Positions 7,817 to 64,000 of a stretch of DNA of 64,000 nt are shown here, one piece after another. A program made the position numbers and the translations under genes. The stretch is taken from NCBI GenBank assembly GCA_965552055.1, contig CBEVQO010000005.1, positions 116,122 through 180,121 on the forward strand, given 5' to 3'. The stretch is from an uncultured bacterium (GTDB lineage: Bacteria > Hydrothermota > UBA3073 > NMUJ01 > CBEVQO01). Below the pieces are notes generated by a model. That model was not told the origin of the DNA and made no database searches. It saw only the letters and a program-made list of their open reading frames with translations. The first letter of the stretch is position 1. Every line of letters starts with the position of its first letter.

Positions 7817-9011
7817 TATAGAAATAAAAAGAGAAGAAGTAAAATCAATAAGATTGTCTTTTTCTGATAAAAAATTGATAAATTGCGAGAGAAGAATTGC
7901 GAAAGTGATAACTGTTAGATTAAGTGATGAGAAAAAAAGTGTGATAGTAAGCGGAAGTTTGCCAGAGCAGGAGCTGATATTGAGGGCAAGAAATCTTTTG
8001 AAATACGGAGAAGAAAGAGATTTTGAACTATCACCTGCTCAAACGATTTCAGAAAAAATGCAATTTAAAGAACCAGACATTAAAAGAATTTGCGAAAAAA
8101 TAAGAGAAATTATGCCAGAAAATCTATCATCCGAATTATTCTTTGAAATAGGAGATGTAAGCGTAAATCATGAAAATACAAAAGGTTTTTCAGGTGAATA
8201 CTCAAAAAGATACTATTCTATATCTTTCTCGATTCCAGTGGAACACGAAGGAGAAATAATTTTTCTGAATTACTCGGATATTTCTACTGCCGATAATTCC
8301 AGAGAAATCATAAAAGAATTGTTGAAAGAATATGAAAGTTTTCCAAAGAAAAGAGAAAAAGAACCTGCTAATTTGCCTGTTGTTTTGCATCCGGATGCTG
8401 TTTCAGACTTAATCAAAATGTGCACTTATTTTGCAAGGGGTGAGTATATACACAAATGTGTGAGTCCTTTTTGTGATAAATTAGGAGAAAAGATATTTTC
8501 CGGGGAATTGACAATTGAGCATATACCTGATGATAAAAATTTCGCAGGATGGCGTCCTTTTGACGATGAGTGTACACCAACAAAGAGATTTAAGTTTATA
8601 GAAAAAGGTGTATTGAGGAATTTATTTTTATCGCGAAAGAGTGCAAAAAAGTTATCCCTTGAACCAAATGGGTGCGCTATATTCGGAGAATCACCGTTTT
8701 TCAGAATTGAAGAGACAGCACTTGCTCTGGATGTTTATCCAGGTAAAAATTTATTAACTTCATTAAAAGATTTTATTTTGATAAGAGATGCATCTTTTGA
8801 TATTTATCCAACAGGTGAATTCGTGGCAGATTGCATACTTGCATATCTTTACAGGAAAGGCAAAAAAGAAAAATATTTGAGAAGCTTCCAGATAGCTGGA
8901 AACATTTTCGATATACTTGGTAAAAATTTAATCTTTTTGAGCAAGAAAAGAATAAGAATAGGAAATATAATAGCTCCCTATATTGGTTTTTCAGGTGTAA
9001 AAATTATATAA
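7806..9011 (+). CDS. Divergent TldE/PmbA-like partner protein
   Basis: RPFDDEC.PT and IAGNIFDIL motifs, no HExxxH, directly follows tldD. Confidence 0.75.
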   Translation: MAIDIEIKREEVKSIRLSFSDKKLINCERRIAKVITVRLSDEKKSVIVSGSLPEQELILRARNLLKYGEERDFELSPAQTISEKMQFKEPDIKRICEKIREIMPENLSSELFFEIGDVSVNHENTKGFSGEYSKRYYSISFSIPVEHEGEIIFLNYSDISTADNSREIIKELLKEYESFPKKREKEPANLPVVLHPDAVSDLIKMCTYFARGEYIHKCVSPFCDKLGEKIFSGELTIEHIPDDKNFAGWRPFDDECTPTKRFKFIEKGVLRNLFLSRKSAKKLSLEPNGCAIFGESPFFRIEETALALDVYPGKNLLTSLKDFILIRDASFDIYPTGEFVADCILAYLYRKGKKEKYLRSFQIAGNIFDILGKNLIFLSKKRIRIGNIIAPYIGFSGVKII

Positions 9012-9340
9012 ATTTTTAGCCCCGCCTCCCTATCCCCACCGCCCTCGTGCACACCCCTCGCTACCAAAAGGCATTGTCTTGACCACTCACGCTCTTTAAA
9101 ATGCCCTACCCGTAATAAAGCAAGTTCGCAACCGAAACCTCAATCACATCAAAAACTGCACTACTGCACTCTATAACCTCTCCCCATAATGAGTGTAGTA
9201 TCGCACCTAAATCGGCTCCCGCTTTCATTACCACTACCCTTAAAAATCTCCATTTCTGCTCCCAAAATGCAGTTCAGCTCTCACCGCTCGGGGTGTTGAC
9301 TCACAACCCATATGTAATGTGCTCGCTTACGCTCGCATTA
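9011..9340 (-). mobile_element. GC-rich structured repeat element, long intergenic copy (~330 bp), non-coding
   Basis: Reverse complement shares four collinear blocks with 61981-62175, including terminal blocks of 31/33 and 40/43 identity. Confidence 0.75.
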
Positions 9341-9443: not shown

Positions 9444-11441
9444 GTGAGGCATGTTGCTTTATTATTCATCATTTTTACAGGGACGGCTTTCGCAAAGGTA
9501 TGGGTTGTTGATACCACAGGTGCAGAGGGCAAAAAGCTACAATCTGCAATTGACTCCGCATGGCAAGACCCGGGGATTGATACTGTGCTGGTAAAGGATG
9601 GAACCTATCATCTATTTATAAATGACACTATGGGCTTGATAATGCATGATTCTGTGGTGCTCATGAGTGAAAACGGAGCTGAAAAATGCACATTAACAGC
9701 TGTATCAGAGGATGGCACAGATACCGCATGGCATGTCATCTATTGCAGTGGATGGGATACTGCATCGCACGCAGCACTTATAAAGGGCTTCACCATAAAA
9801 GATGGCAATGCAACGGGTCCTTCTTCTCACACTTGGGGAGGCGGAATCTACATTTATTCTGCGTCACCCACAATAGATTCATGTATAATCACAAACAATT
9901 CTGCTAGTGGCGGTGGAGGAATTTTCATTTATTACTATTCTTCCCCCGCATTATTAGGCAATACAATTACAAACAATTATGCTGATGCTGGTAGCGGAAT
10001 TTTTATCTGGTGCCATTCTTCTCCCACAGTATCAGGCAATACAATTGCAAACAATCATGCTTATTATGGCGGCGGAATTTTCATATCTGATTATTCTTCC
10101 CCTACAGTGTCAGGTAATACAATTACAAATAATTATGTTAATAACTATGGCGGCGGGATTTTCATAACAGACTATTCTTCACCCTTATTATCATGCAACA
10201 CAATTATAAACAATCATGCTGATGATGGCGGTGGAATTTACATTTCCTTTTCTTCTTTTCCCATATTAACAGGAAATACAATCACAAACAATCGTGCTTT
10301 TGTTAACGGTGGAGGTGTTTTAATTGAACTTCGTTCCTCACCCACATTATTATACAATGCTATTACAGATAATCTTGCTTCATATGGTAGCGGAATTTTC
10401 ATTACAAATTATTCTTCCGTAAAGATAACAAAATGCGTAATCGGAATGAACAAAAGCAATTATGGTGGTGCAATATATGACACACTTCATTCAAAAATTA
10501 TAATCGACAGTTCGTTCATTGTGGATAATGTAGGTCTCGCTTATATTGCATCTGATGCAGATTCAGGAGTGACATTCAAACTAACATACAGCCATATATA
10601 TTATAACACTTTACAGCAAGATACCGAAATCAAAAATTTTTCGGGTGTAACTATAAATCTTGAAAATAATTTCTGGTGGGACACAACAGATGCAGAAATA
10701 TCTGCAAAAATATCGGGTGCAAATGACCATACCCCGTGGTTCAGCCACTTTATACCGGGTGTGCCGGGTGAACCCGTTAGCATTGACTCTTTTAAAAATT
10801 ACGATAAAGATTTCTCACAAGTTATTGACTCACTTGGCAAAGAAGATACACTTTACATAAGGATTTACGGACAGGATAGGGATGCACATATACATGAAAT
10901 CGCAGTGGTAATAATAAAATCGAGTGTTTATCCACAGGGAATAGCAGTTGGGCTCGTTGAAACAGATACAAATTCAGGAATATATGAAGGCAAAGCTTAT
11001 GTTCTGGAAAGCACAGGAAATGACGATATAAGGGATGACGATATAAATCAAATTATCCGTGTTAATCCAGATGGAGACGATATTTTCATCATCAGCAATA
11101 TTGAGCCACAGAAAAAATTTTATGTTAAATATAAAAAAGGTGCTGGGATAAAAGAAATTTCAGTAGAAAAATTCAAAGTAAGCAATATGCCAAATCCATT
11201 CAGCAAATTCACAAAGATTAAATATCAATTGCCAGAAGAAGAAAAAGTAAGGATTGAAATAATAGATGTAACAGGAAGATTGATAAAAGTATTGGTTAAT
11301 GAAAAGAAATCACCGGGATTTCATTCTGTAACATGGAAAGGTGAAGACGCCAGAGGCAAAACTGTTCCACCTGGAATCTACTTCTATCTCATAAAAGCAG
11401 GCAAAAACAAAGCAATAAAGAAAATGATAAAATTGAAATAA
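9444..11441 (+). CDS. Exported right-handed parallel beta-helix repeat protein with FlgD-Ig/T9SS-type C-terminal domain
   Basis: Signal peptide ending AFA, 24-aa GGGIFI..YSSP..SGNTITNN repeats, C-terminal PNPF...GRLIK...W.G.D..G...PGIYF. Confidence 0.85.
   Translation: MRHVALLFIIFTGTAFAKVWVVDTTGAEGKKLQSAIDSAWQDPGIDTVLVKDGTYHLFINDTMGLIMHDSVVLMSENGAEKCTLTAVSEDGTDTAWHVIYCSGWDTASHAALIKGFTIKDGNATGPSSHTWGGGIYIYSASPTIDSCIITNNSASGGGGIFIYYYSSPALLGNTITNNYADAGSGIFIWCHSSPTVSGNTIANNHAYYGGGIFISDYSSPTVSGNTITNNYVNNYGGGIFITDYSSPLLSCNTIINNHADDGGGIYISFSSFPILTGNTITNNRAFVNGGGVLIELRSSPTLLYNAITDNLASYGSGIFITNYSSVKITKCVIGMNKSNYGGAIYDTLHSKIIIDSSFIVDNVGLAYIASDADSGVTFKLTYSHIYYNTLQQDTEIKNFSGVTINLENNFWWDTTDAEISAKISGANDHTPWFSHFIPGVPGEPVSIDSFKNYDKDFSQVIDSLGKEDTLYIRIYGQDRDAHIHEIAVVIIKSSVYPQGIAVGLVETDTNSGIYEGKAYVLESTGNDDIRDDDINQIIRVNPDGDDIFIISNIEPQKKFYVKYKKGAGIKEISVEKFKVSNMPNPFSKFTKIKYQLPEEEKVRIEIIDVTGRLIKVLVNEKKSPGFHSVTWKGEDARGKTVPPGIYFYLIKAGKNKAIKKMIKLK
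9835..10410 (+). repeat. Coding tandem repeats of ~72 bp (beta-helix coils, about 8 units)
   Basis: Recurring gg(c/t)ggaattttcat...tattcttc.cc...ggcaatacaattacaaacaat. Confidence 0.8.
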
Positions 11442-57757: not shown

Positions 57758-58747
57758 ATGAAATTTTCTGTCGTTATAATCACAAAAAATAGGAGAGAGT
57801 TGTTGAAAAAATGTATTAACAGTGTAAAAAATGCAAAAAATAATTCTGATGTTGAGATAATTGTTGTTGAGGAGACTGATAAAGAGCTGGATATAAATGG
57901 AGTTAAGCATGTCAAATTGTCGGGTAAAAATCTGGGGTATGGGGTGCCTCGCAATGTTGGTGCGAAAGTAGCAAAAGGTGATTATGTGATATACATTGAT
58001 GATGACTGCATAATGGATAAAAATTATTTTGTAAGATTAAAGGAAGATTTAAGAAATTTAAATGCCGATGTTATAACAGGCGGAGTAATTGTAGAGGGTT
58101 ATAATTTTCTTTCGATTTGTCAAAATGCATTAGGTATTCCAAATGGTGCGCTTAAAAGAATTTTGAAAGCAAAAGGCAAAATTATAAAAACAAATTTGTT
58201 TTCAACCTGTAATTGTTGTATAAAAAAAGAAATATTGCTAAAAGAAAAATTCTGGGAAATAAAAAGAAGAGGAGGCGAAGATTATGATTTAGCTCTTCGT
58301 CTTGTTGATAAGGGCAAAGAAGTTTATTTCGACCCAGATCTTATTTGCTACCATAAATCTACAGAAAGTTTAAAAGGTTTTATGAAAAAATTTTATGAGA
58401 GGGGTAAAAACGAAATAAATTATTTTAAAGTAAGATTGAATTTCCGGTCATCTTTTTTTAAATTTTTGAGGACATCTCTTTTTATTCGTTTTTTGATTTT
58501 TGTTTTAATTTTCAATCTTTCTCATTTTTGGGGATTTTGTTTTCTTATCCTGTGGTTTTTAACTTTTTACTTTACCAATGTTTTGAGGGCTTTTCCTGTT
58601 TTTTCTTATTATCAAAGGATTTATTTAGTGTTTTTTTATCCATTTTTGAAATGTTTACTTGATTTTTCGTCAGAATCAGGCAGAATTAAAGGGCTTTTTG
58701 AGAGGGTTGAATATGTTGAAGGTATCGATTATAGTGCCTACTTATAA
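57758..58747 (+). CDS. Glycosyltransferase family 2 with C-terminal membrane segment
   Basis: SVVIIT.NR, RNVG, YIDDDC, GEDYDL. Confidence 0.88.
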   Translation: MKFSVVIITKNRRELLKKCINSVKNAKNNSDVEIIVVEETDKELDINGVKHVKLSGKNLGYGVPRNVGAKVAKGDYVIYIDDDCIMDKNYFVRLKEDLRNLNADVITGGVIVEGYNFLSICQNALGIPNGALKRILKAKGKIIKTNLFSTCNCCIKKEILLKEKFWEIKRRGGEDYDLALRLVDKGKEVYFDPDLICYHKSTESLKGFMKKFYERGKNEINYFKVRLNFRSSFFKFLRTSLFIRFLIFVLIFNLSHFWGFCFLILWFLTFYFTNVLRAFPVFSYYQRIYLVFFYPFLKCLLDFSSESGRIKGLFERVEYVEGIDYSAYL

Positions 58748-59630: not shown

Positions 59631-60576
59631 ATGAAGTGGATTATTTTGATAGTTTCTTTACTGATGGGTGGCTGTGGTTTTATTTTGATATTTTTAAATA
59701 AACCGCCCGAGCCCGTTATTGAAGGGATAACAAAGTCCCTGACGGGTTGTGTAAAGGTTTCTGTGTTTGCTGATGACCCCGAAGAAAGCAAAGTTGCAAT
59801 AAGAGTTGATTTTGGAGATGGGTATGTATTGTGATACAGGTGTTTATGTGATTCGTGCTCAGGCAAAGGATTATTATAAGACATCACGCTGGTCTGAAGG
59901 TGAGACAGTGAAAGTGGAAAGTGTAGGCTGTATTGACACAGCAGGTCTTGTGCTTTATCTTACATTTGATGAAGGCACGGGTGATACTGCTTATGATTAT
60001 TCTGGTCATTGCAATCATGGAGTAATATACGGTGCAAAATGGGTAAGCGGTGTTTCTGGTTATGCACTTGAGTTTGATGGAGTTGATGATTATGTGAGGA
60101 TTCAGGGTACTTCCTCTCTTGATTTTTATGGCAGGGATGAGCTCACGGTATCTGCATGGGTTTACCGAAAGGGTGAAGGCGGTGGAACATGCTGTCCCCC
60201 TATTGTTGCCCAAAGAGAAATAAAAAGATGGACATTCAGATATGATAGGAGAGACAGTTATGAGGGAGAAGGTTTGGAACTTGTTATTACTACGACTGAT
60301 GGGACATGGATAGGTGATAACGATGGTACCACTTTTCCACTAAACGAATGGCTTTTTGTATCTGCGGTATACGATGGCTCATGCATTCGCATTTATAAAA
60401 ATGGTAAACTGGCAGTAGAGTATCCTGCATCTGGTGCATTTATCCGTACCGGGACACAGACCGAAATAGGTGGCACAATAGATGGATATTTCGATGGCAT
60501 CATTGATGAAGTTTTAATTTATAGCAAAGCTTTAAGTGAGGAAGAGATAAAAGCTCTTTATAATCGCTATAAATGA
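59631..60576 (+). pseudogene. Frameshifted exported protein: PKD-like domain plus LamG domain (ORFs 59631-59834 and 59806-60576)
   Basis: First frame gives signal peptide, N.PP.P, DDPE and IRVDFGDG. The second frame continues the same domain (Y.DTGVY.IRAQAKD...SRWSE) and then LamG (FDEGTG, ALEFDGVDDYV, G.IDEV.IY..ALS). Confidence 0.7.
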
Positions 60577-61871
60577 GGATAGCACTGATATATCCGAATC
60601 GTTATGCGAAATATAATGTGAAAGAGAGGGAGTTTTATAGAGTGCCCCCTTATAATCTTCTGGTTCTTGCTGGATTGACTCCCCGGGATTTTGAAATTGA
60701 GATAATAGATGAGCGTTATGAAAAAATAAATTTTGATAAGAAATATGACCTTGTGGGCATTACCGCACTTACCTGCAATGCACCCCGTGCTTATGAGATA
60801 GCTTCAGAATTTCGTCACAGGGGCGTGAAAGTAATTCTTGGTGGCATTCATCCCACTTTTTTACCTTATGAAGCCATAAAATATGCAGATAGTGTTGTGC
60901 TGGGTGAAGCGGAATCTATCTGGCGTGAAGTTTTGCAGGATGCACAGAGAGGTAAATTACGCAAGTTTTATAAGGGAAAACTCTGTGATTTGAAGGATAC
61001 TCCTTTCCCAAGATGGGACCTTCTCAAGAAATTAAAAAGGTATGTCTTTTTTGTTCAGGCAACAAGAGGTTGTCCCAATAACTGCAAATTCTGTTCTGTG
61101 CCGAAATTTTCGGGAAGAAGATTAAGGGTTAAACCTATTGAAAAGATAGTTGAAGAGATTAAAAAATTTGGTAAAAAATTTGTTATCTTTGTAGATGACA
61201 ATATTTTTGCCAGAAAAGAATATGCTTTTAAACTTTTCAAAGCTTTAAAATCATTGAGAATAAAGTGGGGAGGCGAAGCATCTATCAATACGCTGTGTAA
61301 TTTTGATTTAATAAAGGAGGCAGCAAAAAGTGGCTGTAAGGCGCTTTTTGTTGGTCTTGAAACGATAAAGCAAAAATCCCTTGAATTTTTAAATAAAACT
61401 TTCAATGCTTTGATAGATTTTAAAAAGTTAGTTGAAGTTTTGCATAGAAATGGGATAGCGGTTATTGCATCGATGATGTTTGGTCTTGACCATGATGATG
61501 CTGGGATTTTTCGTCGCACTGTTAATTTTCTTGATGAAGCAAAAGTTGATGCTGCGATATTTTCAATATTAACGCCACTGCCTGGCACCGATTTATTTGA
61601 GCAGTTTCAGAAGGAAGGTAGAATTTTGCACTATGACTGGTCGAAATATGATGCACTTCACTGTGTTTTTAAACCGAAAAGAATGACAAAAGAGCAGCTT
61701 GAAAATGGCTTAAAGTTTGTGTATAGGGAATTTTATTCGCCGTTGCGTGTGCTGAAAAGGATACCCCGTATGTTGAAAGTTTGTCCCTTTATGATACCTG
61801 TTAATATAGGTTATATGATAGGTGCGAGGCGGGGCATCTGTCCTGACTGGCGTAAAAAAATCCCCAGGTGA
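60573..61871 (+). CDS. B12-binding domain radical SAM protein
   Basis: GGIHPT, GEAE, TRGCPNNCKFC, FVDDN, GLET, TPLPGT. Confidence 0.9.
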   Translation: MRIALIYPNRYAKYNVKEREFYRVPPYNLLVLAGLTPRDFEIEIIDERYEKINFDKKYDLVGITALTCNAPRAYEIASEFRHRGVKVILGGIHPTFLPYEAIKYADSVVLGEAESIWREVLQDAQRGKLRKFYKGKLCDLKDTPFPRWDLLKKLKRYVFFVQATRGCPNNCKFCSVPKFSGRRLRVKPIEKIVEEIKKFGKKFVIFVDDNIFARKEYAFKLFKALKSLRIKWGGEASINTLCNFDLIKEAAKSGCKALFVGLETIKQKSLEFLNKTFNALIDFKKLVEVLHRNGIAVIASMMFGLDHDDAGIFRRTVNFLDEAKVDAAIFSILTPLPGTDLFEQFQKEGRILHYDWSKYDALHCVFKPKRMTKEQLENGLKFVYREFYSPLRVLKRIPRMLKVCPFMIPVNIGYMIGARRGICPDWRKKIPR

Positions 61872-63118
61872 AAGTATTAGTTGCTACAGGGATAGAGCCA
61901 GATTTATCAGGAGGTACTCAAAGGCGTTTGTATTATCTTATTGAGAAGATGAGGGAAAGGTTTGATGTTGATATTTTTTTATTGCGAGGGCGTAGCCCGA
62001 GCCAATTACAAATGGGTTGTGAGTCAACGCCCCGAGCAAGGCACTCTATTTTTGTAGCGGATGCAGGCTGGTTTATTCGACTTATTACGGGCAGGAGGTT
62101 AAAAAGCCACAGCGAAGTCAAGGCTGTGCCTTGCGAGGGGCGTGCACGAGGGCGGTGGGGACAGGGAGGTGGGGCAAATATTTTTTATAAGATATGCTTT
62201 CCTTTTAGAATAAACTGGAATTTATTGGAAAATTTTTGTAAAAGATTGCAAAAAAGGGATTTTGATGTTTTATTTTGTGTTAAGATTTTGCCTTATTTTT
62301 ACTGGTTGATGTGTGAGAAATATCCTTTGAATAGGGATTATAAAGTTGTTATCGATGAAGGTGCTCTCTTTTTTCTTTATTATTACAGATTGTATTTGTA
62401 TCATCCTGATTTTTATCAGAGGATTTTGAATTATTTAAGATTTTTGAGATTATATTTTTTTACCCGTAAATTTTTGAAGTATTGTGATTTTGTGACTTAT
62501 GTGAGTGAGGTTGAGCGTGAATGGTTGTGCCGGCTGGGCTATTCGGGTAAAGGTGTGTATTTACCGAATTATATTGATGTTGATGCTATTCCTTTTTTGC
62601 CAGTTTCTAATTGTAATATTCTGCTACTAGGACCTTTTGATTATTATCCCAATTATCATTCTTTGTGGTGGTTTTTTAATAGAGTTTTTCCTTTGTTGCG
62701 TGAGATGGGATATAGGGGTGAGATTTTTGTTGTTGGCAGGTGTGTGCCACGCTGGTGTTATTCTTTTTCTGATAGATTTAAGGGGATAAAGGTTTTGGGC
62801 TGGGTATCTGATTTATCTTCTGTTTATTCTCGCTGTGGTATTTTTGTTTTGCCTGTGTGGTGTGGAGGGGGACAAAGGACGAAGCTTCTGGAAGCGATGG
62901 CTTATGGCAAGGCGTGTATTGTGAGTGTTAAAGGCAAAGAAGGGGTATTTGCAAGGGATGGAGTTGAGTTTTTTGTTGCACACAATGAGAGGGAATTTGC
63001 AGAAAGAGTAATGTATTTGTGTAAGAGGAAGGAATTGATTAAGATAGTGGGTGAAAATGCCCGCAAGTTTGTTGATAAACATTTTTCTTTGAGAAATCTT
63101 GATTTGAAATTTTTATAA
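61868..63118 (+). CDS. Glycosyltransferase family 4 carrying an in-frame repeat-element insert
   Basis: VSEVE, PN, YYPN, GGGQRTKLLEAMAYG. Residues ~38-105 are encoded by the element. Confidence 0.85.
   Translation: MKVLVATGIEPDLSGGTQRRLYYLIEKMRERFDVDIFLLRGRSPSQLQMGCESTPRARHSIFVADAGWFIRLITGRRLKSHSEVKAVPCEGRARGRWGQGGGANIFYKICFPFRINWNLLENFCKRLQKRDFDVLFCVKILPYFYWLMCEKYPLNRDYKVVIDEGALFFLYYYRLYLYHPDFYQRILNYLRFLRLYFFTRKFLKYCDFVTYVSEVEREWLCRLGYSGKGVYLPNYIDVDAIPFLPVSNCNILLLGPFDYYPNYHSLWWFFNRVFPLLREMGYRGEIFVVGRCVPRWCYSFSDRFKGIKVLGWVSDLSSVYSRCGIFVLPVWCGGGQRTKLLEAMAYGKACIVSVKGKEGVFARDGVEFFVAHNEREFAERVMYLCKRKELIKIVGENARKFVDKHFSLRNLDLKFL
61980..62177 (+). mobile_element. GC-rich structured repeat element, short copy inserted in frame
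   Basis: Homologous to the reverse complement of 9011-9340. Flanked by ATATTTTTT at 61971 and 62178, 207 bp (69 codons) apart. Confidence 0.8.
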
Positions 63119-63146: not shown

Positions 63147-63151
63147 CAGTG

Positions 63152-63859
63152 ATGGGTGGAAGTGCGGAGGAAAAGTTTTGGGAGGCGTTGAGGAGATTGA
63201 TAGAGAGGCAGGAGCAGAATGAGAAAGCGATAGAGAAACTGCGAGAAAGGCAGGAGAAGACAGACGAACAGTTAAGGGATACAGACAGAAAGATTGAAAA
63301 ATTACGCGAAAGGCAGGAGAAAACGGATGAACAGTTAAGGAAGACGGATGAACAATTGAGGAAAACAGACGAAGGGATGAAAGAATTACAAAGGCTCATT
63401 AAGGATTTATCGAACAATGTAGGTGGTCTTAATCGCTCGTTTGGCAAGATACCCGAAGCATTGAGCGAGCCACAGGTTGAAGAAAAGTTTGAAGAAGCAG
63501 GATTTAGGGTGCTTGGTGCATATCCCAATATATGGGGCAAATACAACGATAAGAAAAAAGAGATTGACCTCCTGATAAAGGCAAAGCGTAAGGGTAAATC
63601 TTATATAATCGTGGTTGAAACCCAGGTGCAGTTCAGAGCCAAAAAGGAAATAGATGATTTTATCGGATTTTTGAAAAAAGATTTCAGGAAATATTTTGAC
63701 GAATATGCAGGGATGAAAGTAATAGGTTGCGTCTGTGCACTTAAATTTAGCAGAGGAGTTGATGAATATGCGATGGAAAAAGGTTTATACTGCATGAAAC
63801 CGGTAAAGGGCATAATGGGATTAGTAAATCCAAAAAACTTCAAACCTGAAGAATTTTGA
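63152..63859 (+). CDS. Heptad-repeat coiled-coil protein with C-terminal PD-(D/E)xK-like domain (DUF3782-like)
   Basis: KTDEQLR repeats, G...E, EIDLL...IVVETQ. Confidence 0.75.
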   Translation: MGGSAEEKFWEALRRLIERQEQNEKAIEKLRERQEKTDEQLRDTDRKIEKLRERQEKTDEQLRKTDEQLRKTDEGMKELQRLIKDLSNNVGGLNRSFGKIPEALSEPQVEEKFEEAGFRVLGAYPNIWGKYNDKKKEIDLLIKAKRKGKSYIIVVETQVQFRAKKEIDDFIGFLKKDFRKYFDEYAGMKVIGCVCALKFSRGVDEYAMEKGLYCMKPVKGIMGLVNPKNFKPEEF

Positions 63860-63861
63860 AA

Positions 63862-64000
63862 ATGAACGCAGAAGAAAAATTCTGGGAAGCATTGAGGAGA
63901 TTATCGGAAGAAATCGATAGATTAAAAGAATCGCAAAAGAAAACTGATGAACAATTGAGGAAAACGGATGAAGGGATGAAAGAATTACAAAGGCTCATTA
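63862..64000 (+). CDS. Tandem paralog of the preceding coiled-coil protein, runs off the window edge
   Basis: MNAEEKFWEALRRLSEEIDRLKESQKKTDEQLRKTDEGMKELQRLI; the last ~50 nt are nearly identical to 63347-63401. Confidence 0.8.
   Translation, partial: MNAEEKFWEALRRLSEEIDRLKESQKKTDEQLRKTDEGMKELQRLI

What the first reader, a model, noticed from the sequence alone, without database searches (positions are those of the whole stretch)
61971..62186. The repeat element sits in frame inside a glycosyltransferase gene and is read as ~69 extra codons
Seen: the GC-rich element interrupts a very T-rich GT4 gene with no stop or frameshift (LLRGRSPSQLQMGCESTPRARH...RGRWGQGGGAN). ATATTTTTT occurs at 61971 and 62178, exactly 207 bp apart, so removal restores ...RFDVDIF-YKICFPF.... 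Established: Rickettsia palindromic elements are a precedent for non-coding repeats translated inside proteins. Inference: an analogous protein-invading repeat, or an element removed by splicing or precise excision. Caveats: the candidate target duplication is low-complexity, and the insert-free N-terminal domain looks short, so the element may have replaced native sequence.
Basis: partly seen in the sequence, partly recalled or inferred. Interest (0 to 1): 0.85.

Follow-up and report, generated by a model that had tools for sequence, protein, structure and literature searches.

The report
Repeat copy read through inside glycosyltransferase gene
One copy of a GC-rich repeat that otherwise lies between genes sits in frame inside a sugar-transferase gene of an uncultured hydrothermal-vent bacterium and is probably translated as a floppy 69-residue loop, a rare but already known way for selfish DNA to alter proteins.

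Summary
ORF 61868..63118 is a GT4 glycosyltransferase (Pfam, AF2/Foldseek). About 207 bp (61980-62186, 54% GC against 34.5%) belong to a dispersed repeat with at least 48 copies in this genome. The ORF runs through it for 69 codons without a stop.

Only this copy lies in a gene (1 of 41 mapped copies). None of 57 sense frames of the 19 other copies of 150 nt or more is stop-free. Composition-matched random sequence is stop-free in 3-5% of trials.

Contigs from other studies bridge the left (X2) and right (X3) junctions. No contig lacks the insert. All 20 homologues lack the peptide. AF2 folds the rest confidently and leaves residues 42-112 disordered. Variants downstream are 9 synonymous to 6 non-synonymous.

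The 9-bp ATATTTTTT pair is not a supported target duplication. The insert stands where homologues have about 36 further native residues, including strand beta3, so removing it would not restore the family architecture.

Best reading: an RPE-like in-frame insertion-plus-replacement that is translated (about 0.58). Splicing, excision, bypass and intein readings lack support. There are no RNA or protein data.

It is a new member of a known kind. Three earlier notes of this scan describe the repeat family elsewhere in this genome. None shown describes this intragenic copy.

The parts
60573..61871 (+). Upstream gene: B12-binding radical SAM enzyme. Its TGA stop overlaps the GTG start of the GT4 gene (GTGA).
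   Evidence: ORF. Pfam PF04055 at 70.2 bits and PF02310 at 43.1 bits. Overlap read. Strain variants are 11 synonymous of 13.
61868..63118 (+). GT4 (GT-B fold) glycosyltransferase ORF, 416 codons including the insert.
   Evidence: AF2 pTM 0.81. Foldseek top hits are GT4 enzymes with E of 1e-15 to 1e-11. Family-invariant G335, K339, L341, E342 and A345 are present.
61868..61979 (+). Native N-terminal segment (residues 1-37: beta1, loop, alpha1, beta2).
   Evidence: It aligns with the N-termini of 20 homologues. The nearly invariant P11 and R20 are kept. AF2 gives E2-7, H16-29 and E33-38 with pLDDT 80-88.
61980..62186 (+). Repeat-derived insert, 207 nt or 69 codons. Boundaries are uncertain by about 10 nt; family homology spans about 61976 to 62185-62195.
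   Evidence: BLAST to other copies, 78% identity to the nearest copy. GC 54.1%. No stop in frame. AF2 pLDDT is below 50 for residues 42-112.
61971..61979 (+). Left copy of the 9-bp direct repeat ATATTTTTT. It overlaps the element's own T-rich left end.
   Evidence: Not supported as a target duplication.
62178..62186 (+). Right copy of ATATTTTTT. It lies within the element's own A/T-rich right tail.
61984..62002 (+). Hairpin 1 of the element: stem with tandem G.A/A.G pairs and a GUA loop.
   Evidence: Located. In 14 short copies the closing pair covaries, A-U in 6 and G-C in 8, and the G.A pairs are invariant.
62027..62044 (+). Left arm of the long central helix. It pairs with 62126-62143.
   Evidence: MFE and centroid folds. 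Compensatory AAGGCAC/GTGCCTT against GGGACAC/GTGTCCC among copies, and this copy's own ACGCCCC/GGGGCGT against ACACCCC/GGGGTGT.
62126..62143 (+). Right arm of the long central helix.
62150..62174 (+). G-tract motif (GGG-N4-GGGG-N3-GGG-N4-GGGG). It fits the canonical G-quadruplex pattern and is translated here as ...RGRWGQGGG.
   Evidence: Located. Conserved in 43 copies, with variation confined to the positions between G-runs. G4 formation is inferred, not tested.
62187..63118 (+). Native remainder of the GT4 gene: rest of the N-domain and the whole C-domain.
   Evidence: Pfam. AF2 block means of pLDDT are 74-98 over residues 121-410. Strain variants are 9 synonymous and 6 non-synonymous.

Best explanation
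A copy of a lineage-specific, GC-rich, hairpin-forming dispersed repeat became fixed inside the N-terminal Rossmann domain of a GT4 glycosyltransferase gene. It lies just after strand beta2. It stands in place of about 36 native residues (beta3 and the short helices after it). Its length is 3n and its used frame has no stop, so ribosomes starting at the native GTG read straight through. That start is coupled to the upstream radical-SAM gene. The product is a 416-residue enzyme with a 69-residue Arg/Gly-rich loop that is probably disordered, at the outer edge of the N-domain sheet. The enzyme probably still works. Shown: repeat membership, the open frame and its improbability, the junctions in other assemblies, absence of the peptide from homologues, and the intact fold and catalytic motifs. 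Inferred: translation of the insert, retained activity, and the replacement history.
For: (1) The ORF is continuous for 416 codons, and the GT4 domains score above Pfam cut-offs on both sides of the insert. (2) Among 19 other copies of 150 nt or more, 0 of 57 sense frames are stop-free. Only 2.8-5.2% of composition-matched random sequences are stop-free. With the 3n length this gives roughly 1-2% by chance. (3) This is the only copy inside a gene: 1 of 41. That fits selection removing frame-breaking intragenic insertions. (4) The N-terminal 37 residues keep the family's nearly invariant P11 and R20. The C-domain keeps the invariant K339 and E342. (5) AF2 folds the rest as GT-B (pTM 0.81), with only residues 42-112 below pLDDT 50. 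Foldseek top hits are GT4 enzymes. (6) Contigs of other studies bridge the junctions: X2 covers 61311-62042 and X3 covers 62146-62667. X1 covers 61000-62078 with no differences. No joint skips the insert. (7) Variants after the insert are 9 synonymous of 15, against 21% expected (p=0.0012) or 36% for transitions only (p=0.05). (8) No in-frame start codon after the insert has an SD-like motif. (9) In-frame translated small repeats are a documented kind: RPEs and intragenic ERIC/RU (passages of PMC10969869; abstract of PMC2759123).
Against: There is no RNA or protein evidence. A gene caller on a 99%-identical contig started the gene at Met148, giving P0001 of 269 aa. About 36 native residues including beta3 are missing compared with the in-genome paralogue and the homologues, so the enzyme could be impaired. 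Most variants in the synonymous count lie on contigs not physically linked to the insert; only X3's 62146-62667 contig is linked. No variation was seen inside the insert, so selection on the insert peptide itself is untested. AF2 gives the insert no structure. SD motifs are weak genome-wide (36% of long ORFs against 14% background), so their absence at internal starts says little. X1 may be the sample the genome came from.
Confidence: 0.58

Rival explanations
1. The gene was inactivated by the insertion-plus-deletion and is a young pseudogene. The open frame is a coincidence, or simply has not yet decayed.
For: About 36 native residues including beta3 are gone. Gene callers do not call the long ORF. 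A paralogue at 29% identity exists at C3:66105-67292, and the protein search gave 17 matches in the own genome, several of them other GT-like ORFs and several mere element copies. Chance of a stop-free 3n insert is small but not negligible, about 1-2%.
Against: The synonymous excess downstream (9 of 15). Intact invariant residues on both sides of the insert. The insert is present in assemblies from studies dated 2018, 2022 and 2025 that differ by 0.3-1% in flanking DNA, with no frameshift or stop in the covered parts. This copy is the most diverged of its size class (78% to the nearest copy), which does not suggest a very recent event, although it may descend from a lost subfamily.
Confidence: 0.2
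2. The gene is effectively split. Only the part downstream of the insert is made, from an internal start such as Met148 as gene callers chose, and the upstream 106 codons are unused.
For: P0001 (269 aa) is called from Met148 on a 99%-identical contig. In other copies of the family a TTGACA box follows the element within about 30 nt, so one could imagine promoter activity next to it.
Against: No TTGACA follows this copy. None of the 8 in-frame start codons after the insert listed up to position 62396 has an SD-like motif. A product from Met148 would lack beta1, alpha1, beta2 and more of the N-domain present in all 20 homologues. This reading does not explain why 106 upstream codons, including 69 foreign ones, stay open in frame.
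Confidence: 0.1
3. The insert is removed or skipped. Candidate routes are RNA splicing, precise DNA excision between the ATATTTTTT repeats, or ribosomal bypass from ATT-TTT (61974-61979) to the identical ATT-TTT (62181-62186). The product would read ...DVDIF-YKICFPF...
For: An exact 9-bp direct repeat in the same codon phase flanks the insert. The insert RNA can form strong helices. Bypass of inserts carried by mobile elements is known from phage T4 gene 60 (bioRxiv 10.1101/2022.08.31.505936; search listing and start of abstract only).
Against: No contig joins across the insert in 4 runs; contigs do drop rare variants. No Rfam family matches, at gathering scores in the window and at E up to 1 in six copies. 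The smallest family members are 63-67 nt, too small for self-splicing introns. The codon after the would-be take-off is TTA, not a stop, and the gap is 207 nt against 50 nt in gene 60. Removal mechanisms do not need a stop-free 3n insert. The insert-free product would still lack beta3. The repeat pair is not beyond what the A/T-rich element ends give: 9 or more in 2.8% of mismatched flank pairs.
Confidence: 0.05

Closest known systems
Rickettsia palindromic elements (RPEs; Ogata et al. 2000, as described in passages of the review PMC10969869)
   Same: A dispersed, hairpin-forming, non-autonomous repeat lies in frame inside an unrelated metabolic gene without stops. It adds a peptide at a position compatible with the host protein's fold.
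   Different: No sequence relation was shown. RPE families are often intragenic: nearly half of the copies, from three of ten families, sit in ORFs according to the review passages. Here it is 1 of 41 mapped copies (at least 48 in all). This element is GC-rich in a 36% GC genome, has tandem G.A hairpins and a G-tract, and here replaces about 36 native residues rather than being a pure addition.
Intragenic ERIC / RU-1, RU-2, RU-3 small mobile sequences of enterobacteria (Delihas 2007, PMC2759123; abstract read)
   Same: Mainly intergenic repeats of 100-170 bp, with occasional copies that lie in annotated genes with their reading frame maintained.
   Different: A different lineage and sequence. 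Those have recognisable terminal inverted repeats. Here only a short A/T-rich end similarity (AATTTTTA) is seen and no target duplication.
Modular intergenic repeats such as pneumococcal BOX and E. coli BIME/REP
   Same: Modular build: a constant 5' module and 3' module with a variable number of middle modules, giving sizes of 63 to 463 nt. Mostly intergenic.
   Different: No RAYT/Y1 transposase was found in this 97%-complete genome. The G-tract module and the tandem G.A hairpins are not features of those families, as far as I recall.
Translational bypass elements (T4 gene 60 and homologues; bioRxiv 10.1101/2022.08.31.505936, listing and start of abstract only)
   Same: Foreign insert in a coding region, with matching codons at both borders.
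   Different: There is no stop after the take-off codon. The gap is four times longer. The insert is itself an open frame.

Membership tests
GT4 glycosyltransferase (GT-B fold) | C-terminal Glycos_transf_1-type domain above Pfam cut-off | tested here: met
   PF13692 at 58.9 bits (cut-off 27) and PF00534 at 39.2 bits (cut-off 26.4).
GT4 glycosyltransferase (GT-B fold) | N-terminal Glyco_transf_4-type domain | tested here: met
   PF13439 at 34.9 bits (cut-off 28.5). It matches residues 113-239 to profile positions 54-169, that is only after the insert. The weak PF13579 hit spans residues 15-234.
GT4 glycosyltransferase (GT-B fold) | Two Rossmann-like domains resembling solved GT4 enzymes | tested here: met
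   AF2 pTM 0.81. Foldseek top hits are 6kih, 6eji, 6n1x, 3mbo, 8dqd, 3c48 and 2gej, with probability 1.00.
GT4 glycosyltransferase (GT-B fold) | Conserved C-domain motif residues of the subfamily (GGGxRxKxLEAMA) | tested here: met
   G335, K339, L341, E342 and A345 are invariant across the 21 aligned sequences and present here.
RPE-like in-frame intragenic repeat | Insert belongs to a dispersed multi-copy repeat family | tested here: met
   43 motif copies plus 5 variant copies. 78% identity to the nearest copy.
RPE-like in-frame intragenic repeat | In frame, without stops, inside a gene with homologues that lack it | tested here: met
RPE-like in-frame intragenic repeat | The family is frequently intragenic and in frame | tested here: not met
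   1 of 41 mapped copies. No protein of 228-728 aa in the large collection carries a similar peptide.
RPE-like in-frame intragenic repeat | Insert transcribed and translated | not testable with these tools
   No RNA run was available for this stretch and there are no proteomic data.
MITE | Target-site duplication | tested here: not met
   The longest shared word between own flanks averages 5.85, against 5.86 for mismatched flank pairs.
MITE | Terminal inverted repeats matching a transposase-bearing parent | tested here: inconclusive
   Only an A/T-rich AATTTTTA-like similarity of the two ends is seen by eye. No long parent element appeared among the BLAST hits. Transposase families other than PF01797 were not searched.
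REP/BIME mobilised by RAYT | A Y1 (RAYT / IS200-like) transposase in the genome | tested here: not met
   PF01797 gives 0 matches in the own genome (97% complete). The control rings in 6 of 14 known genomes.
Self-splicing intron or ribozyme | Match to a known intron or ribozyme covariance model | tested here: not met
   No Rfam match at gathering scores in the window. At E up to 1 in six copies, the only hit is an unrelated sRNA at E 0.98.
Intein | Nucleophile (C/S/T) as first insert residue and as first residue after the insert; Hint domain | tested here: not met
   The insert begins with L and ends ...GGGAN, followed by I. No Hint-type Pfam family at E up to 0.01.
Programmed translational bypass | Matched take-off and landing codons, with a stop directly after take-off | tested here: not met
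   Matched ATT-TTT codons are present, but the next codon is TTA and the gap is 207 nt.

The most novel reading that the evidence does not exclude
The structured, G-tract-bearing insert is not simply translated. It may act inside the ORF as an RNA or DNA device. One version: ribosomes hop from ATT-TTT at 61974-61979 to the identical ATT-TTT at 62181-62186, a 207-nt bypass. Another version: its hairpins and possible G-quadruplex throttle translation of the glycosyltransferase with temperature. Either would make a selfish repeat into a built-in regulator of a surface-sugar enzyme in a thermophile.
Probability: 0.04. Interest if true: 0.85.

Novelty: new member of a known kind. Interest (0 to 1): 0.36.

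Why it matters
It adds a case, from an uncultured vent lineage far from Rickettsia and the enterobacteria, of a non-coding repeat becoming protein sequence. The repeat peptide here stands in for a lost structural segment at the edge of a Rossmann domain. It also has a practical side. Gene callers truncate this gene to 269 residues, so such read-through inserts are invisible in protein catalogues. The case gives a concrete object for testing how much foreign, structured, GC-rich sequence a GT-B enzyme and a thermophile's ribosome tolerate. It does not open a new kind of mechanism.

Tried and rejected
- Expression data: no RNA holder was listed for this stretch, so expression could not be addressed.
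- Orthologue or empty allele: a protein scan of metagenome contigs found no relative. In the 40 related genomes searched the best hits are 25-30% identical paralogue-level matches. No empty site is available.
It was not pursued.
- Element in other species: a motif scan of genome contigs gave 16 single hits in unrelated genomes, mostly taxa I know as GC-rich, taken as chance. 0 of 21 other genomes of the class match. The 10 metagenome loci with the motif are 94-99.7% identical to this genome, that is the same species.
- Filled/empty comparison with those loci gave no clean element insertion. L069 carries a 1.18-kb gene cassette next to a tRNA gene. L064 has a 527-nt difference beside a copy. 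L066 has a truncated copy.
- Target-site duplication: rejected.
- RAYT/IS200 transposase: none found.
- Rfam: nothing.
- Peptide search with residues 38-107: no protein of 228-728 aa. Shorter and longer proteins were not searched.
- Eight antisense open frames of 105-193 codons span other copies. They look like low-complexity non-genes by eye and were not tested against family libraries.
- SD analysis was uninformative, because SD use is weak genome-wide.
- Single-sequence MFE of the sense strand is no better than shuffles (z 0.09). The antisense strand gives z -2.26. The case for structure rests on covariation among copies, not on energy.
- Intein, intron and bypass readings were rejected on their defining features (see Membership tests).

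Full report
**What is there.** The window is G000:C5:116122-180121. One open frame runs from GTG 61868 to the stop at 63116-63118, 416 codons. Its start overlaps the TGA stop of the upstream B12-binding radical-SAM gene (60573-61871) in the sequence GTGA.

Pfam places the product in GT4. PF13692 scores 58.9 bits, PF00534 scores 39.2 and PF13439 scores 34.9, all above their cut-offs. The N-domain model matches only from residue 113 on, at profile positions 54-169.

Between residues 38 and 106 the ORF reads through about 207 nt (61980-62186). This stretch is 54.1% GC, against 34.5% for the rest of the gene. The peptide is LLRGRSPSQ...GRWGQGGGAN, with 10 Arg and 10 Gly in the 69 codons counted.

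**The insert is a copy of a dispersed repeat.** The stretch gives 66 BLAST matches in the own 2.23-Mb, 15-contig genome. The conserved 3' motif GGNGGGGAYWGGGAGGNGGGGC occurs 43 times. For 41 of these a 5' module could be paired.

A further subfamily of 5 copies shares the 5' hairpin module but has a slightly different G-motif and another centre. There are also 15 fragment matches, which include the 5' ends of those five copies.

Copies come in size classes of 63-67, 96-98, 180-192, 243-266, 314-323, 412 and 463 nt. They have constant 5' and 3' modules and a variable middle.

The G-rich strand carries three structural features:
- A hairpin with tandem G.A pairs, whose closing pair covaries: A-U in 6 and G-C in 8 of 14 short copies.
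- A central helix with compensatory changes between copies: AAGGCAC/GTGCCTT against GGGACAC/GTGTCCC.
- A G-tract that fits the canonical quadruplex pattern, with variation only between the G-runs.

The intragenic copy keeps these helices. It has its own compensatory pair, ACGCCCC/GGGGCGT, where the aligned copies have ACACCCC/GGGGTGT (one short copy differs).

No Rfam family matches. No Y1/RAYT transposase was found. The element was not found in 21 other genomes of the class. Ten metagenome loci with the motif are the same species, at 94-99.7% identity.

Three earlier notes of this scan describe the same family elsewhere in this genome as intergenic and promoter-adjacent. My crude gene map agrees that copies are intergenic. 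Their orientation to neighbouring genes is mixed: 15 opp/opp, 12 opp/same, 8 same/same, 4 same/opp and 1 with no upstream gene.

**Is the intragenic position special?** Yes. Of 41 mapped copies, only this one lies in a long open frame, 420 codons from stop to stop. Only this one lies inside a gene of a crude ORF map of 1871 ORFs covering 93% of the genome.

Eight antisense frames of 105-193 codons run through other copies. By eye they are low-complexity strings rather than genes, and I did not test them against family libraries.

**Is the open frame chance?**
- The insert has 0 stops in the used frame and 2 in each of the other sense frames.
- Among the 19 other copies of 150 nt or more, none of 57 sense frames is stop-free. 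Among the 7 copies of 150-270 nt, none of 21 is.
- Composition-matched simulations are stop-free in 5.2% (Markov) and 2.8% (shuffle) of 20,000 trials each.
- With the 3n length this comes to roughly 1-2%.

That is the signature expected if the insert must be translated. Splicing, excision or ribosomal bypass would not require it.

**Assembly and population.** No RNA run was available. Contigs of four DNA runs from four studies were laid.
- X1 has a contig covering 61000-62078 without a difference. This bridges the left junction, but X1 may be the source sample.
- X2 has 61311-62042, also bridging the left junction.
- X3 has 62146-62667, bridging the right junction with 41 nt in the element.
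- X3 also has 61311-61980, which ends at the left junction.
- X5 has no piece across either junction.
- No listed joint skips 61980-62186. The only joint inside the element (62037 to 62133, one X3 contig, 27 nt on the shorter side) looks like another, shorter copy.

So the insert is not a misassembly, and it is shared by strains sampled in 2018, 2022 and 2025.

Variant sites reported in the GT after the insert are 9 synonymous and 6 non-synonymous. Random change would give 21% synonymous (p=0.0012), or 36% for transitions only (p=0.05). The upstream gene shows 11 of 13 synonymous. One caveat: only the X3 contig is physically linked to the insert. No variation was seen inside the insert or in codons 1-37.

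**Comparison with homologues.** There is no orthologue. The best hits in the 40 related genomes are 25-30% identical. The large protein collection holds only a 99%-identical 269-residue call that starts at Met148 (P0001), and then proteins of 35% identity or less.

In an alignment with 20 homologues the insert columns are occupied by this protein alone. The nearly invariant P11 and R20 before the insert, and the invariant G335, K339, L341, E342 and A345 after it, are all present.

AF2 with this alignment gives pTM 0.81. It places beta1 (2-7), alpha1 (16-29) and beta2 (33-38), then residues 42-112 below pLDDT 50, then a confident remainder. Foldseek finds solved GT4 enzymes first.

The closest paralogue in the same genome (C3:66105-67292) folds with pTM 0.89. 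It has 46 residues between beta2 (35-42) and the helix 89-102, including strand beta3 (56-61) and three short helices. In the window's protein only about 10 native residues (107-116) lie between the insert and the equivalent helix 117-129.

The insert therefore stands in place of about 36 native residues. Removing the 207 nt would not restore the family architecture.

**The 9-bp repeat.** Across 41 copies, the longest word shared by a copy's own two flanks averages 5.85. For mismatched flank pairs it averages 5.86. A word of 9 or more occurs in 2.8% of mismatched pairs, and in 3 of 41 own pairs.

Family homology begins at about 61976 and runs to 62185-62195. The right ATATTTTTT therefore lies in the element's own A/T tail, and the left one overlaps its T-run. 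It is not a supported target duplication. The exact borders are uncertain by about 10 nt.

**Mechanism.** The best reading is that a repeat copy was fixed in the beta2-beta3 region, with loss of the native segment either at the same time or later. This region is a variable, peripheral part of the N-domain. The copy persists because it keeps the frame. It is translated from the native, translationally coupled start into a disordered Arg/Gly-rich loop. I put this at about 0.58.

The rivals are a young pseudogene (0.2), expression of the downstream part alone from an internal start (0.1), and removal or bypass (0.05). How the element itself moves is unknown. Its strand-specific G.A hairpins and G.U pairs suggest that the G-rich single strand, DNA or RNA, is the selected form. 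That is inference.

**Known or new.** In-frame fusion of small repeats with host ORFs is described for RPEs, intragenic ERIC/RU elements and others. I read passages of the review PMC10969869 and the abstract and outline of PMC2759123.

This family differs from RPEs in being almost wholly intergenic, and the peptide was found in no other called protein of 228-728 aa. My literature searches listed no description of this element or of repeats in this lineage. That is four keyword searches, not proof of absence.

Verdict: real, well supported as an in-frame repeat insertion-replacement, and a new member of a known kind. Interest is moderate to low.

Noticed in passing
window 9004-9336 (- strand; = G000:C5:125140-125457): A second, long (318-nt) copy of the same repeat family lies in this window. 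It is intergenic and in the opposite orientation.
   Followed up: partly
genome-wide; e.g. G000:C2:86292-86480, C2:382694-382959, C3:125100-125417: In 9 of the 19 copies whose downstream neighbour is a convergent ORF, that ORF ends exactly at the element's 3' terminus. Its stop codon TAG is formed by the element's last C plus the following TAA, read on the other strand (distance -1). Elements thus abut or supply gene ends in this compact genome.
   Followed up: no
G000:C1:385426, C2:2772, C2:30590, C2:137323, C3:76478 (each about 165 nt): A subfamily with the same 5' hairpin module but another centre (CAGCCCATTACGGG...GTGGGCTGAC) and a 3' motif GGGGACAGCGGAGG.GGGGC. It escapes the 43-copy motif count.
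   Followed up: partly
flanks of most short copies: A TTGACA box lies within about 30 nt downstream of the 3' end in most short copies, and TGTCAA lies upstream of several. The intragenic copy has neither, so the box belongs to the flanking DNA rather than to the element.
   Followed up: partly
window 61868-63118 vs P0001: Gene calling on a 99%-identical contig starts this gene at Met148 (269 aa). Protein catalogues therefore hold only a truncated form and miss the insert.
   Followed up: partly
window 9833-10402: Seven tandem 78/81-nt repeats at 60-78% identity, with a recurring GGCGGNGGAATTTTCAT unit. They look like coding repeats of a beta-helix-type protein.
   Followed up: no
window 63149-63859 and 63856-64000 (also near 58242): Adjacent paralogous genes begin with ...AEEKFWEALRRL... 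and carry repeated KTDEQLR coiled-coil units. Only weak coiled-coil Pfam hits below cut-offs were found.
   Followed up: no
L069:448-1624 vs G000:C1:340794-340803: A metagenome strain carries a 1.18-kb insertion, with an element copy inside it, directly next to what looks by eye like the 3' end of a tRNA gene. G000 has only 8 nt there.
   Followed up: partly
L066:1055-1096 vs G000:C7:90808-90912: Strain difference: the mini copy at C7:90848-90912 is reduced in the metagenome strain to its G-tract part, with about 71 nt missing.
   Followed up: partly
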